Source: Candidatus Vampirococcus lugosii (lineage in GTDB: Bacteria > Patescibacteriota > Gracilibacteria > Absconditabacterales > Absconditicoccaceae). From it: a DNA stretch of 5,115 nt. Every line of letters begins with the position of its first letter. The stretch's first letter is position 1. The notes under the pieces were generated by a model. The model searched no databases. It was not told where the DNA came from and saw nothing but the letters and a program-made list of their open reading frames with translations. Below, piece by piece: positions 258 to 5,115 of this stretch. The position numbers and the translations under genes are program-made. The DNA lies in assembly GCF_018420025.1 (NCBI RefSeq), contig NZ_JAEDAM010000068.1, forward strand, positions 1 through 5,115, read 5' to 3'.

Positions 258-1706
258 ATGAATAAAAATAAATTTTATATCACAACTACCTTACCTTATG
301 TAAATGCAACTCCTCATATAGGACATGCATTGGAATTTATACAAGCTGATATTATAGCAAGATATAAAAGAAAAAAATTATGAAAAGAAAATGTTTTTTT
401 TAATTTATGAACTGACGAACATTGATCAAAAATTCACCAAAAATCACAAGAAGAATGAATTAGTACTCAAGAATTTGTAGATAAATATTCAAATCAATTT
501 AAAGATTTTTGTAAAAAATTTGATATTGAATATGATTTTTTTTATAGAACTTCTGCTGATTATCATAAAAAACATGTTTACAAAATATGGAATCATTGTT
601 TACAAAAATGAGATATTTACAAAAAAAAATATTCTGCAAAATATTGTGTAGGTTGTGAAGAATTCAAAACTGAAAAAGATTTGATAAACTGAAAATGTCC
701 TATTCATCAAAAAGAATGTATAACTATAAGTGAAGAAAATTATTTTTTTGCTATTAGTAAATATAAAGAAAAAATGCTTGAATATTTGGAAAAAAATCCT
801 AATATACTTAGTCCTAAATCCAAAATTAATGAACTAAAAAATTTTGTAAAAGATATTCAAGATATTAGTATTTCTAGAAGAAAAGAAAAAATGCCTTGGT
901 GAATAGAAGTCCCAAATGATAATGAACAAGTTATTTATGTTTGGTTTGATGCTTTGACAAATTATATATGAACTATTGATTATGCTAGTGATAAAAATAA
1001 TTTTGAACAATGGCGACCTTGAATACAAATTTTTGGACCAGATAATTTAAGATTTCAATGATGAATTTGGCAAGGAATGTTGGCAGGTGCTGATTTGGAT
1101 TTCTCAAAAAAACTTTTGATGCACGGCTATATTCTAGACTGAAAATGACAAAAAATGTCAAAATCTCTCTGAAATGTTGTTTCTCCTTTTGAGCAATTGG
1201 AAAAATATTGATCTGAATATATTAGATTTTATTTATGAGCTTATTTAAATACTTTTTGAGATTGAAATTATCAAGAAGAAGAATTAAAAGATGTAATTAA
1301 TTCAAGATTAGCTGATAATTTTTGAAATTTATTGAGTAGAGTTGTAAATTTGGCAAATAAAAAATGAGTAAAAATTAATGATTTTGAAAAAATTGAAAAT
1401 GAATTTAAAAATAAAGTTGATAATATCAAAAAAAATACTTTGAATTTGATGGATAATTTTGAATTATCTTCTGCTTTTAATGAAGTTCACAAACTAGCGA
1501 TTTTGGGTAATTGATATATTAATGATATAGCCCCTTGGGAAAAAAATAAAGATCAAAAACAAATTCAAATTTGTTTGAATAATTTATCTTATTTACTTTC
1601 AATCTTGATAGATTTGTATGAACCAGTAATTCCTAAATTTTGTTATGAAGCTAAAAAAAGCTTGGAAAATATAGAAAAAATTGTTTTATTTAAAAAATTA
1701 GATTAA
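258..1706 (+). CDS. metG: Methionyl-tRNA synthetase (short form, no C-terminal Trbp111/EMAP-like domain); 482 aa under table 25
   Basis: Codon-by-codon hand translation from ATG 258 (first ATG after in-frame TAA 246-248) to TAA 1704-1706 finds no TAA/TAG and 21 in-frame TGA. MetRS/class I signatures, with [G] marking TGA: [17 protein letters not shown] (HIGH 315-326); NL[G]TDEH[G]SKI; zinc knuckle [16 protein letters not shown][G]KCPIH; [13 protein letters not shown][G]IEVP; [12 protein letters not shown]; HGYILD[G]K[G]QKMSKSL[G]NVVSP (KMSKS 1152-1166). Confidence 0.95.
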
Positions 1707-1713
1707 TTTACAA

Positions 1714-2175
1714 ATGGGAAAAACAACTTTATGAATAATATTGGATCAAAAAAATAATAAAATACTTTTGTGTATGAAAAAAAGATGATTTGGAGAATGA
1801 CTTTGGAACGGACCTTGATGAAAACTTGAAAAAGAAGAAAATATAAATGATTGAATAATAAGAGAAACTTATGAAGAAACATGATTAATTATTAAAAATG
1901 AAGATTTGGAAAATTTTGGAGTTTTACATTTTTATTTTAATAATAATTCAAATTGGGATCAAGATGTATATTTATTTGTAATTAAAAAATTTGCTTGAGA
2001 ATTGATAGAAACTGAGGAAATGAAACCTAAGTGGTTCAATATCGAAGATATACCATACAATCAAATGTGGGAAGATGATATTATCTGGTTGCCAAAAGTA
2101 TTAAATTGAGAAATTGTAGAATATGATTTCATATTTTGAGATAATAACAAAATGATAAATTATAAAAAATATTAA
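1714..2175 (+). CDS. Nudix hydrolase, MTH1/NUDT1-like 8-oxo-dGTP diphosphatase family; 153 aa under table 25
   Basis: ATG 1714 is the first ATG after in-frame TAG 1699-1701; stop is TAA 2173-2175; 10 in-frame TGA. There is a perfect Nudix box GX5EX7REUXEEXGU at 1819-1887: [G]KLEKEENIND[G]IIRETYEET[G]L. It is preceded by R[G]FGE[G]LWNGP[G][G]K, resembling human MTH1 GFGAGRWNGFGGK. The C-terminal IPYNQMWEDDIIWLPKVL resembles the MTH1 MWPDDSYWFP motif. The gene starts 7 nt after the metG stop. Confidence 0.9.
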
Positions 2176-2200
2176 TATAAAAAATTAACTTCAAAAAGAT

Positions 2201-2229
2201 TTGAAATTTTACAGTTTATTATTTATAAT
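2201..2229 (+). promoter_or_regulatory. Candidate promoter for the small-ORF pair: TTGAAA (2201-2206), exactly 17 nt spacer, consensus TATAAT (2224-2229)
   Basis: Read directly from the sequence. The -10 ends 37 nt before ATG 2267. This is the best hexamer and spacing match in the window, but the background is AT-rich. Confidence 0.4.
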
Positions 2230-2266
2230 AAAGCTTATTATATTTTTATATAAAATATATATTATA

Positions 2267-2611
2267 ATGTATAACAAATGATATGAACAAGTTTTGGAAA
2301 ATTTAAAAAAATCTTTGGAATATAAAATATATTCAATTTTTTTGTTTGATAAATTTGAAAAAGATGAAATTATAAAATCTATAATTACTATAAATGATGT
2401 TAATATTTTATATAATATAGAAATAATGCTTGATTCTGTATTAAGTTCATTATGAAAATTTACAAATAAACTTATAGATTCTTTTGATGAAAATGAATTA
2501 CAAGAATTTAAAAAATCTTTATCTATTGATTTAATACAAAAATCTAAATCTGAACAAAAAAATCTTTTGGAACAACTTAATATTGATTTAGATAAAGAAA
2601 TAAATATATAA
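2267..2611 (+). CDS. Hypothetical protein, 114 aa, no family recognised
   Basis: ATG 2267 to TAA 2609-2611 is open for 114 codons with 2 in-frame TGA (2279, 2453). The nearby ATGs in the other + frames (2278, 2283) hit TAA within 16 codons. Product: MYNK[G]YEQVLENLKKSLEYKIYSIFLFDKFEKDEIIKSIITINDVNILYNIEIMLDSVLSSL[G]KFTNKLIDSFDENELQEFKKSLSIDLIQKSKSEQKNLLEQLNIDLDKEINI. The C-terminal third looks helical and charged. It fills an otherwise unexplained gap and shares orientation with its neighbours. Confidence 0.6.
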
Positions 2612-2640
2612 TAATTATTTTAATTAATTACAAAAATAAA

Positions 2641-4403: not shown

Positions 4404-4413
4404 TAAAAAAAAT

Positions 4414-4473
4414 AAATATCTTGATGTTAAGAAGAACTATAATTAATCTTTAATTACATTAAGATATTTTTTT
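4414..4473 (+). terminator. Candidate intrinsic terminator downstream of the M32 gene
   Basis: Arm 4414-4427 (AAATATCTTGATGT) pairs with 4456-4469 (ACATTAAGATATTT), giving 14 bp with one G-U at 4423/4460. The hairpin runs into a 7-T tract (4467-4473). The 28-nt loop has a possible inner 4-bp helix (4429-4432 with 4447-4450). The stem is AT-rich and the loop large, so confidence is moderate. Confidence 0.45.
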
Positions 4474-4555
4474 ATCAAAAAATCCTTGATTTAAACTCAT
4501 CTTTGTAAACAAAAAATAGTTAGTTTTGTAGTGGCGAGTATTGTTGTATTTTCTC

Positions 4556-4585
4556 TTGAAATTATGATTTTTTTTATTATATATA
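4556..4585 (+). promoter_or_regulatory. Weak candidate promoter upstream of the transposase remnant: TTGAAA (4556-4561), 18 nt spacer, TATATA (4580-4585)
   Basis: Hexamers read from the sequence, 50 nt upstream of ATG 4636. This could easily be chance in this composition. Confidence 0.2.
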
Positions 4586-4635
4586 AAATATATTATTTTT
4601 TATCTTTTATTATTTTAAGTGGTAATAATTATAAT

Positions 4636-4974
4636 ATGTTTATTAAAAAAAGTACTCGCAAATATAATTGAAAAACTTATATCACTCATTATCTTGTTGA
4701 ATCTTTTAGAGATAAAGATACAAAAAAAGTAAAACATAGAAATATAGCTAATCTTTCTGAATTACCTCCAAAATCTTTATTAGCTCTTAAAGAATCTCTT
4801 AATTGGAATACTTCTAATGTTAGTAAGCACAAAATAGAAGATTTGGAAGTTATTGGAACGAAACAATATTGAAGTATTACTATTTTTCAAAAAATATTTG
4901 ACAATATTTTTTGAAAAATAATTTGAAAAAAAATGTATAGATTATGCAATGGATTATATTTACAAATTTCCTAA
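4636..4974 (+). pseudogene. N-terminal remnant of an IS1634-family (IS4-superfamily) transposase; a 112-codon ORF where full-length proteins exceed 400 aa and carry a DDE domain
   Basis: ATG 4636 to TAA 4972-4974, with 4 in-frame TGA (4669, 4870, 4912, 4924). Product: MFIKKSTRKYN[G]KTYITHYLVESFRDKDTKKVKHRNIANLSELPPKSLLALKESLNWNTSNVSKHKIEDLEVIGTKQY[G]SITIFQKIFDNIF[G]KII[G]KKMYRLCNGLYLQIS. The opening (MFI.., basic stretch, LVESxR, then RxxANLSxxPxxxxxxLKxxL) matches my recollection of the conserved IS1634-type transposase N-terminus. No catalytic domain follows. The tail after about 4925 overlaps recX out of frame. Confidence 0.55.
4881..4920. repeat. Perfect 40-nt palindrome: 18-bp inverted repeat with a 4-nt spacer
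   Basis: The reverse complement of 4881-4898 (TATTTTTCAAAAAATATT) is exactly 4903-4920 (AATATTTTTTGAAAAATA), checked base by base. The spacer is TGAC (4899-4902). Symmetry breaks at 4880/4921. Confidence 0.9.
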
Positions 4975-5115
4975 AACAGAATCACAACTTAAAACTCAAT
5001 TATTTAAAAAATGATATAATGATAAAGAAATAGAAATAACAATAACATTACTTAAATCTAAAAATTATCTAAATGATAAAAATTATTGCGAAATTTATTT
5101 CAATTCAGAATGTGT
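4949..5115 (+). CDS. recX: RecX-like regulatory protein, 5' portion (runs off the window end); start uncertain
   Basis: The frame is open from 4922 (after TAA 4919-4921) to the window edge, and its only ATG is at 4949. Product: MDYIYKFPKTESQLKTQLFKK[G]YNDKEIEITITLLKSKNYLNDKNYCEIYFNSEC. This fits the RecX helical-repeat pattern: S/T-x-x-E/Q-L..KL..KG(F/Y)....I......L...GYLND..(F/Y)....(Y/F). There is one in-frame TGA (5012), at the conserved KG(F/Y) glycine. Confidence 0.65.

What the first reader, a model, noticed from the sequence alone, without database searches (positions are those of the whole stretch)
258..5115. TGA is a sense codon sitting on invariant glycines: translation table 25 (TGA=Gly), not stop and not Trp
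By hand count, about 1,470 codons across seven + strand ORFs contain 56 in-frame TGA and no in-frame TAA or TAG. That rules out decayed pseudogenes in DNA this AT-rich. The TGA positions coincide with family-invariant glycines. In MetRS they are G-TDEH-G (408, 423), W-G-I-P/E-V-P (900), G before KMSKS (1146) and KMSKSL-G-N (1170). In the Nudix protein they are both box glycines (1819, 1882) plus GFGxG and NGxGG (1786, 1798, 1816). In M32 they are DP-G (3390), G-VLQDIHW (4098) and F-G-YFPTY (4137). In RecX it is K-G-Y (5012). Conserved tryptophans are still TGG, for example VWFDA (942), LWNG (1804), MWEDD, IWLP and DIHW (4119). That argues against the Mycoplasma-type table 4. TGA=Gly is established only for Gracilibacteria (BD1-5) and Absconditabacteria (SR1), so the window probably derives from one of these CPR lineages. 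Any standard-code annotation of this contig would shatter every gene.
Basis: partly seen in the sequence, partly recalled or inferred. Interest (0 to 1): 0.8.

Follow-up and report, generated by a model that had tools for sequence, protein, structure and literature searches.

The report
Known UGA=glycine code, Vampirococcus contig
The window is a whole contig of the predatory CPR bacterium Candidatus Vampirococcus lugosii, whose use of TGA as a glycine codon is real here but was already published for this organism; the one addition is a CGA codon that seems to mean tryptophan.

Summary
Seven + strand ORFs carry 56 in-frame TGA and no in-frame TAA or TAG, and all six complete ORFs end in TAA. 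Against 116 standard-code MetRS homologues, TGA columns are 62% Gly and 0% Trp, while TGG columns are 99% Trp. Pfam scores rise with TGA=Gly and fall with TGA=Trp.

It is not new. The NCBI MetRS of Candidatus Vampirococcus lugosii (Absconditabacteria/SR1), recorded on a 5115-bp contig, equals the table-25 translation. The genome paper (PMC8080830) states UGA=Gly and used Prodigal table 25.

One refinement: "table 25" is probably incomplete. The only CGA codon (1014-1016, MetRS residue 253) lies on a column that is Trp in all 114 homologues with a residue there. Two relatives also have CGA at that site and the closest relative has TGG. This fits the CGA/CGG=Trp reassignment predicted for Absconditabacteria (PMC8629427). 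NCBI's product has Arg there.

I could not test tRNA-Gly(UCA) or RF2 loss in the source genome. The tRNA was found only in related MAGs.

The parts
258..1706 (+). metG (methionine--tRNA ligase), 482 aa, 21 in-frame TGA, 7 GGN, 6 TGG, stop TAA
   Evidence: Pfam PF09334 scores 273.5 bits with TGA masked, 309.4 with Gly and 245.9 with Trp. The table-25 translation is identical to NCBI protein P0001 of Ca. Vampirococcus lugosii.
1014..1016 (+). Only CGA codon in the window (MetRS residue 253, context W-CGA-P). It probably encodes Trp, not Arg.
   Evidence: The column is Trp in 114/114 standard-code homologues with a residue there. Relatives L002 and L003 have CGA at this site and L001 has TGG. Eleven standard-code metagenome MetRS genes all have TGG. 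Replacing Arg with Trp adds 5.8 bits on PF09334.
1714..2175 (+). Nudix hydrolase, MTH1/NUDT1-like, 153 aa, 10 in-frame TGA including both Nudix-box glycines (1819, 1882)
   Evidence: PF00293 scores 41.7 bits masked and 62.5 with Gly; with Trp it falls outside the 1e-8 listing. In the alignment to MTH1 structures, 7-8 of the 10 TGA sites are Gly.
2267..2611 (+). orf3, 114 aa hypothetical protein, 2 in-frame TGA
   Evidence: The frame is open apart from TGA. No significant family match in Pfam or NCBIfam, so its TGA sites could not be evaluated.
2641..2844 (+). orf4, 67 aa hypothetical protein, 2 in-frame TGA
   Evidence: The frame is open apart from TGA. No family match, so its TGA sites could not be evaluated.
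2919..4403 (+). M32 (Taq-type) carboxypeptidase, 494 aa, 16 in-frame TGA
   Evidence: PF02074 scores 478.8 bits masked, 520.8 with Gly and 459.1 with Trp. Against four solved M32 enzymes, 5 TGA columns are Gly in 4/4, 4 are Gly in 3/4, and none is Trp.
4636..4974 (+). orf6, 112 aa: N-terminal fragment of a DDE (PF01609) transposase, 4 in-frame TGA
   Evidence: It equals NCBI hypothetical protein P0121 of V. lugosii. Homologues of about 450-580 aa align over their first ~100 residues and carry DDE_Tnp_1 downstream. The TGA at residue 12 is Gly in 29/37 homologues and the TGA at residue 79 is Gly in 25/37.
4949..5115 (+). 5' part of recX, cut by the contig end, 1 in-frame TGA (5012)
   Evidence: NCBIfam RecX model NF001058 gives E=3.9e-10. 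Gly scores 40.1 bits, masked 37.0 and Trp 36.0. It is 98% identical to the 142-aa RecX P0122 on another V. lugosii contig.

Best explanation
The window is an entire 5,115-bp contig of Candidatus Vampirococcus lugosii, an Absconditabacteria (SR1) epibiotic predator. In this lineage UGA is a glycine codon. It is the main one here, with 56 TGA against 17 GGN. UAA serves as the stop codon and UGG remains tryptophan.

Mechanism, taken from the literature on the clade and not shown for this genome: a tRNA with anticodon UCA and glycine identity elements (G1:C72, C2:G71, G3:C70, U73) is charged by GlyRS and reads UGA, and release factor 2 is absent, so nothing terminates at UGA.

With lower confidence (about 0.8): CGA, and by extension CGG, is read as tryptophan rather than arginine in this organism. 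If so, the true code is table 25 plus CGA/CGG=Trp, and the deposited MetRS has a wrong Arg at residue 253.
For: Identity. NCBI MetRS of Ca. V. lugosii (P0001), recorded on a 5115-bp contig, equals the table-25 translation. The lineage is Absconditibacteriota. The genome paper states UGA=Gly and used Prodigal table 25.

TGA=Gly.
- In MetRS, 13 of 21 TGA columns are at least 77% Gly in 116 standard-code homologues. Overall the TGA columns are 62% Gly and 0% Trp, while TGG columns are 99% Trp.
- In a per-codon likelihood test on metG, TGA is best explained by Gly (+36.0 nats); the next best is Ala (-23.1) and Trp scores -48.4. Every codon seen 10 or more times recovers its standard meaning.
- Relative to a masked TGA, Pfam scores rise 36, 21 and 42 bits with Gly for MetRS, Nudix and M32. 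With Trp, MetRS falls 28 bits, M32 falls 20 bits, and Nudix drops below the 1e-8 listing cutoff.
- Under Gly the MetRS composition is 5.8% Gly and 1.2% Trp. The homologue medians are 5.8% and 1.9%.
- In three relatives, TGA and GGN interchange at invariant glycines, including the HIGH motif. One relative's metG has 31 TGA and no GGN.
- No ORF needs TGA as its stop.

Clade-level tRNA. A scan for a Gly-identity tRNA(UCA) returned 120 loci. Ninety-nine hold a tRNA with anticodon UCA, nearly all in low-GC MAGs labelled Gracilibacteria, Peribacteria or Patescibacteria. Ninety-two of these are 79 nt long including CCA, and the tRNA sequence is highly conserved across them (39 distinct sequences among the 99).

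CGA=Trp.
- See part 1014-1016.
- In relatives, three photolyase CGA codons and one aldo-keto reductase CGA codon fall on conserved Trp of solved structures.
- In clade GlmS proteins the HTRWATHG tryptophan reads Arg in 44 of 120 sequences.
- The reassignment is predicted for Absconditabacteria in PMC8629427.
Against: The tRNA-Gly(UCA) gene and the absence of prfB were not examined in the V. lugosii genome itself. The paper and its held supplements say nothing on either point.

Eight of the 21 MetRS TGA columns are not Gly-dominated. The four TGA codons in orf3 and orf4 have no homologues to test.

For CGA=Trp there is only one CGA codon in the window, and singleton codon inferences are noisy: five other singleton codons in metG also gave a non-standard best residue.
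Confidence: 0.96

Rival explanations
1. The code is plain table 25. CGA is still arginine, and V. lugosii and two relatives really carry Arg in place of the conserved Trp at MetRS residue 253.
For: NCBI translates it as Arg. There is only one CGA codon in the window, and singleton inferences are unreliable.
Against: The column is Trp in 114/114 homologues, and the closest relative has TGG there. CGA also falls on conserved Trp in photolyase, aldo-keto reductase and GlmS of relatives. The reassignment has been predicted for the clade.
Confidence: 0.18
2. TGA encodes tryptophan, as in Mycoplasma-type table 4.
For: Public pipelines translated the relatives' genes this way: P0002-P0004 carry W at TGA.
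Against: No homologue has Trp at any of the 21 MetRS TGA columns. The likelihood for Trp is -48 nats. Pfam scores drop 20-28 bits for MetRS and M32. Under this code Trp content would be 5.6% against a homologue median of 1.9%. It would also turn HIGH into HIWH in relatives.
Confidence: 0.01
3. The code is standard and TGA is a stop. The ORFs are decayed pseudogenes, or the TGAs are amplification or assembly errors.
For: The DNA came from whole-genome amplification of micromanipulated cells.
Against: There are no in-frame TAA or TAG in 1,483 codons of 20% GC DNA; the chance is about 1e-19 for metG alone. TGA falls specifically on Gly columns. The same pattern appears in independent assemblies of relatives.
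Confidence: 0.005
4. TGA is read as selenocysteine or through context-dependent readthrough.
For: ARAGORN labels UCA-anticodon tRNAs as tRNA-SeC.
Against: There are 56 sites in 5 kb, including housekeeping proteins, on Gly columns rather than Cys/Sec columns (the likelihood for Cys is -35.8 nats). The clade tRNA(UCA) is 76 nt plus CCA, which is the size of an ordinary tRNA rather than a Sec tRNA.
Confidence: 0.002

Closest known systems
[quoted passage not shown] 2013, Rinke et al. 2013, as cited in PMC8629427 and PMC8080830)
   Same: In-frame TGA falls on glycine columns, TGG stays Trp, TAA is the stop, and the DNA is very AT-rich. The source organism belongs to Absconditabacteria and was annotated with this table by its authors.
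   Different: Nothing differs for TGA. The single CGA codon does not behave as the arginine that table 25 specifies.
Absconditabacteria code predicted by Codetta (UGA=Gly plus CGA and CGG=Trp; Shulgina & Eddy 2021, PMC8629427)
   Same: CGA lies on an invariant Trp column. CGA and CGG are very rare (1 and 0 in 1,483 codons) and AGA is the working Arg codon (26 uses). GC content is very low.
   Different: That study screened six Absconditabacteria species. I found no paper in the held library that links Vampirococcus to CGA and tryptophan. The evidence here is one codon plus relatives.
Table 4 (Mycoplasma/Spiroplasma and some insect endosymbionts; UGA=Trp)
   Same: UGA is a sense codon in an AT-rich, reduced genome, presumably decoded by a tRNA with anticodon UCA.
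   Different: The amino acid is Gly, not Trp.

Membership tests
Table 25 lineage (UGA=Gly) | Conserved genes contain in-frame TGA but no in-frame TAA/TAG | tested here: met
   56 TGA and 0 TAA/TAG in 1,483 codons
Table 25 lineage (UGA=Gly) | TGA aligns with glycine in homologues that use the standard code | tested here: met
   MetRS TGA columns are 62% Gly and 0% Trp. M32 and Nudix agree against solved structures. Gly log-odds is +36 nats. Pfam scores rise 21-42 bits with Gly.
Table 25 lineage (UGA=Gly) | UGG remains tryptophan | tested here: met
The six MetRS TGG columns are 99% Trp.
Table 25 lineage (UGA=Gly) | TGA is not used as a terminator | tested here: met
   All six complete ORFs end in TAA
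Table 25 lineage (UGA=Gly) | Organism belongs to Absconditabacteria or Gracilibacteria | tested here: met
   P0001 is named Ca. Vampirococcus lugosii and recorded on a 5115-bp contig. The lineage is Candidatus Absconditibacteriota.
Table 25 lineage (UGA=Gly) | Genome encodes tRNA-Gly with anticodon UCA | not testable with these tools
   The window has no tRNA. The rest of the V. lugosii assembly could not be reached. At clade level the result is positive: 99 tRNA(UCA) genes in related MAGs.
Table 25 lineage (UGA=Gly) | Release factor 2 (prfB) is absent | not testable with these tools
   This needs the whole genome. The paper and its supplements do not mention it.
Absconditabacteria extended code (CGA/CGG=Trp) | CGA/CGG codons align with tryptophan columns | tested here: met
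   Window: one CGA on a column that is Trp in 114/114. Relatives: the same site, photolyase and aldo-keto reductase, and GlmS Trp74 reading Arg in 44/120. The window sample is a single codon.
Absconditabacteria extended code (CGA/CGG=Trp) | CGA/CGG are rare and arginine is carried by AGA | tested here: met
   CGA 1, CGG 0, CGC 1, AGA 26, AGG 0
Absconditabacteria extended code (CGA/CGG=Trp) | tRNA(UCG) and/or tRNA(CCG) carry tryptophan identity (G73, no A20) | not testable with these tools
   No V. lugosii tRNA genes were available
Table 4 (UGA=Trp) | TGA aligns with tryptophan columns | tested here: not met
   0% Trp at TGA columns; Trp log-odds is -48 nats

The most novel reading that the evidence does not exclude
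Vampirococcus lugosii does not use plain table 25. It also reads CGA (and CGG) as tryptophan, so its deposited proteome, and those of related genomes translated with table 25 or table 4, carry false arginines at conserved tryptophan sites. In the most AT-rich relatives TGA has almost completely displaced GGN as the glycine codon: 337 TGA against 16 GGN in one 19-kb locus.
Probability: 0.8. Interest if true: 0.3.

Novelty: already known. Interest (0 to 1): 0.12.

Why it matters
For annotation, the code choice decides everything on this contig. Table 11 shatters every gene, and table 4 puts Trp at catalytic glycines, as has happened to relatives' proteins in public databases. All of that was already established for this organism and clade.

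The useful residue is practical. Table 25 itself seems to mistranslate CGA in this genome, which supports adding CGA/CGG=Trp when Absconditabacteria genomes are re-annotated.

Tried and rejected
1. Looking up the source contig by NCBI's MetRS product found nothing on record. So no further V. lugosii DNA could be reached.

It returned related MAGs plus 21 high-GC chance matches, and no V. lugosii locus.

3. The V. lugosii paper and its held supplements mention no tRNA anticodons or release factors. Campbell et al. 2013 is not held. Hanke et al. 2014 has nothing on tRNA(UCA) or RF2.

4. The window has no tRNA and no Rfam match. The flanks of three relatives' metG loci held only tRNA-Ser, tRNA-Lys and a tmRNA.

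5. The 55-aa RecX fragment has no significant match among solved structures. I used NCBIfam score differences instead.

6. A GlmS search, meant to fetch a second V. lugosii protein with a possible CGA site, returned no V. lugosii entry. It did give clade-level Arg/Trp toggling.

7. The metagenome scan for MetRS relatives gave only distant genes (11 near full-length, 37-43% identical). All 11 lack in-frame TGA, so they served only as a control.

8. The promoter and terminator scans were uninformative in this AT-rich DNA.

9. I considered joining orf6 to recX through a frameshift. I dropped this because orf6 is a transposase N-terminus.
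Full report
**What is in the window.** The window is 5,115 bp and 20.3% GC. 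If only TAA and TAG count as stops, the + strand holds seven ORFs:
- metG, 258-1706
- a Nudix hydrolase, 1714-2175
- two small unknowns, 2267-2611 and 2641-2844
- an M32 carboxypeptidase, 2919-4403
- orf6, 4636-4974
- the 5' part of recX, 4949 to the window end

There is no in-frame TAA or TAG, and all six complete ORFs stop at TAA. At this base composition a random codon is TAA or TAG with probability 0.088. Open frames of 483 and 495 codons therefore have chance probabilities near 1e-19 and 1e-20. Under table 11 the genes fall into fragments of 0-106 residues. The window has no tRNA gene and no Rfam match.

**What TGA means.** I masked TGA as X to keep the tests unbiased.

- *MetRS columns.* I aligned MetRS to 116 homologues with normal Trp content, meaning standard-code organisms, mostly other CPR bacteria. 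Thirteen of the 21 TGA columns are at least 77% Gly and seven are Gly in every homologue. No homologue has Trp at any TGA column. The six TGG columns are 99% Trp.
- *Likelihood test.* A per-codon test on this alignment recovers the standard meaning of every codon used 10 or more times. It assigns TGA to Gly at +36 nats. The next best residue is Ala at -23, and Trp scores -48.
- *M32.* Against four solved M32 carboxypeptidases, five TGA columns are Gly in 4/4 and four more in 3/4. None is Trp.
- *Nudix.* Against MTH1 structures, 7-8 of the 10 TGA sites are Gly, including both Nudix-box glycines.
- *Pfam scores.* MetRS scores 273.5 masked, 309.4 with Gly and 245.9 with Trp. M32 scores 478.8, 520.8 and 459.1. 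Nudix scores 41.7 masked and 62.5 with Gly, and with Trp it falls outside the 1e-8 listing.
- *RecX.* Four RecX models all score Gly best at residue 22.

The claim needs one softening: eight MetRS TGA columns are variable or dominated by another residue. TGA sits on many invariant glycines, not only on them.

**Where it comes from.** The top MetRS hit, P0001, is NCBI's "methionine--tRNA ligase [Candidatus Vampirococcus lugosii]". It is recorded on a contig of 5,115 bp and is identical to the table-25 translation of the window. The species belongs to Candidatus Absconditibacteriota.

**Relatives.** Three related metG genes (79%, 68% and 69% identity to the masked query; loci L001-L003) are stored in public collections as table-4 translations, with W at every TGA.
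- At the window's TGA sites they carry either GGN or TGA. At the window's GGN sites they often carry TGA, including the Gly of the HIGH signature.
- One relative's metG has 31 TGA and no GGN at all. Its 19-kb locus has 337 TGA against 16 GGN.
- Eleven near full-length, more distant MetRS genes from metagenomes have no in-frame TGA and serve as a control.
- L001's GlmS is about 90% identical to that of Candidatus Absconditicoccus praedator.

**A refinement: CGA.** The Codetta screen (PMC8629427) predicted that Absconditabacteria read CGA and CGG as Trp in addition to UGA as Gly.
- The window has one CGA codon, at 1014-1016 (MetRS residue 253, W-CGA-P). That column is Trp in all 114 homologues with a residue there.
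- L002 and L003 also have CGA at this site, and L001 has TGG. All eleven standard-code metagenome genes have TGG.
- Changing Arg to Trp adds 5.8 bits on the MetRS Pfam model.
- In relatives, three photolyase CGA codons and one aldo-keto reductase CGA codon (LIH-CGA-P against HWP) fall on conserved Trp of solved structures.
- In 120 clade GlmS proteins, the tryptophan of HTRWATHG reads Arg in 44. From my own knowledge, this is Trp74 of E. coli GlmS, which gates the ammonia channel.
- Arginine in the window is carried by AGA (26 uses), with CGA 1, CGG 0 and CGC 1.

I put the probability that CGA means Trp in V. lugosii at about 0.8. The limit is a sample of one codon; other singleton codons in the same test gave noisy answers. 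NCBI's product has Arg at this residue. I found no paper in the held library linking Vampirococcus with CGA and tryptophan.

**Mechanism: shown and inferred.** What is shown here is the meaning of the codons, from comparative data. The decoding machinery in this genome is inferred.
- The literature attributes UGA=Gly to a tRNA(UCA) with glycine identity elements and to loss of RF2.
- I spent the single genome-collection scan on a pattern for such a tRNA. Ninety-nine hold a tRNA with anticodon UCA.
- Almost all of the 99 are in low-GC MAGs labelled Gracilibacteria, Peribacteria or Patescibacteria. Ninety-two are 79 nt long including CCA, and the tRNA sequence is highly conserved across them (39 distinct sequences among the 99). 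The other 21 loci are high-GC chance matches.
- V. lugosii was not among the listed loci, and no other route to its remaining contigs worked.

**Other observations.**
- orf6 is the first ~100 residues of a DDE transposase that is normally about 450-580 aa long. It is a truncated remnant. Two of its four TGA sites lie on Gly columns.
- The recX fragment at the window end is 98% identical to a complete 142-aa RecX on another V. lugosii contig of 8,435 bp. That copy starts MKKKCIDYAM. In the window a stop codon and an 8-A run lie upstream.
- An 18-nt perfect palindrome lies at 4881-4898/4903-4920.
- Together these suggest a repeat, a rearrangement or an assembly or amplification junction. I did not resolve which.

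**Verdict.** The finding is already known: UGA=Gly was published for this genome in 2021 and for the clade in 2013. Interest is low. The one point worth passing on is that table 25 probably mistranslates CGA here.

Noticed in passing
window 1014-1016: The only CGA codon (MetRS residue 253) sits on a column that is Trp in 114/114 homologues. Two relatives keep CGA there and the closest relative has TGG. NCBI's table-25 product has Arg at this residue.
   Followed up: yes
window 4636-4974: orf6, annotated as a hypothetical protein, is the N-terminal ~100 residues of a DDE (PF01609) transposase that is normally about 450-580 aa. It is a truncated insertion-sequence remnant.
   Followed up: yes
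window 4881-5115: The recX 5' fragment is 98% identical to a full RecX (P0122, 142 aa) on another V. lugosii contig of 8,435 bp. The window copy lacks that copy's MKKK start (stop at 4919-4921, 8-A run at 4926-4933). An 18-nt perfect palindrome at 4881-4898/4903-4920 lies just upstream. This could be a repeat, a rearrangement or an amplification or assembly junction.
   Followed up: partly
L001 10001-11446; L002 10001-11443; L003 7865-9313: Public protein collections hold relatives' proteins translated with table 4, so glycines read as W (for example HIWH in place of HIGH). Ninety-nine of the 120 clade GlmS hits have the excess Trp content expected from this.
   Followed up: partly
L003 1-19313: In this relative TGA has nearly replaced GGN as the glycine codon: 337 TGA against 16 GGN across the called genes, and 31 against 0 in metG. 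In the window the ratio is 56 to 17.
   Followed up: partly
window 1714-2175: The best solved-structure matches of the Nudix protein are vertebrate MTH1/NUDT1 (E about 1e-24), far ahead of bacterial MutT-type entries (E about 1e-5).
   Followed up: no
L006, L008, L010, L012 and about 88 other loci: A 76-nt (plus CCA) tRNA with anticodon UCA is highly conserved across 92 MAGs labelled Gracilibacteria, Peribacteria or Patescibacteria. ARAGORN labels it tRNA-SeC.
   Followed up: partly
GlmS proteins P0164-P0283 (alignment columns for L001 GlmS residues 74 and 312): The HTRWATHG tryptophan reads Arg in 44 of 120 clade sequences, and a second conserved Trp column reads Arg in 34. This is the pattern expected if CGA/CGG codons mean Trp.
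   Followed up: partly
L003 7865-10217; L004 105-2457: The metG-then-Nudix gene order of the window is kept in one relative, which has two tandem Nudix genes after metG.
   Followed up: no
window 2267-2844: Two small ORFs (114 and 67 aa) match no significant family in Pfam or NCBIfam. Their four TGA codons cannot be checked against homologues.
   Followed up: partly
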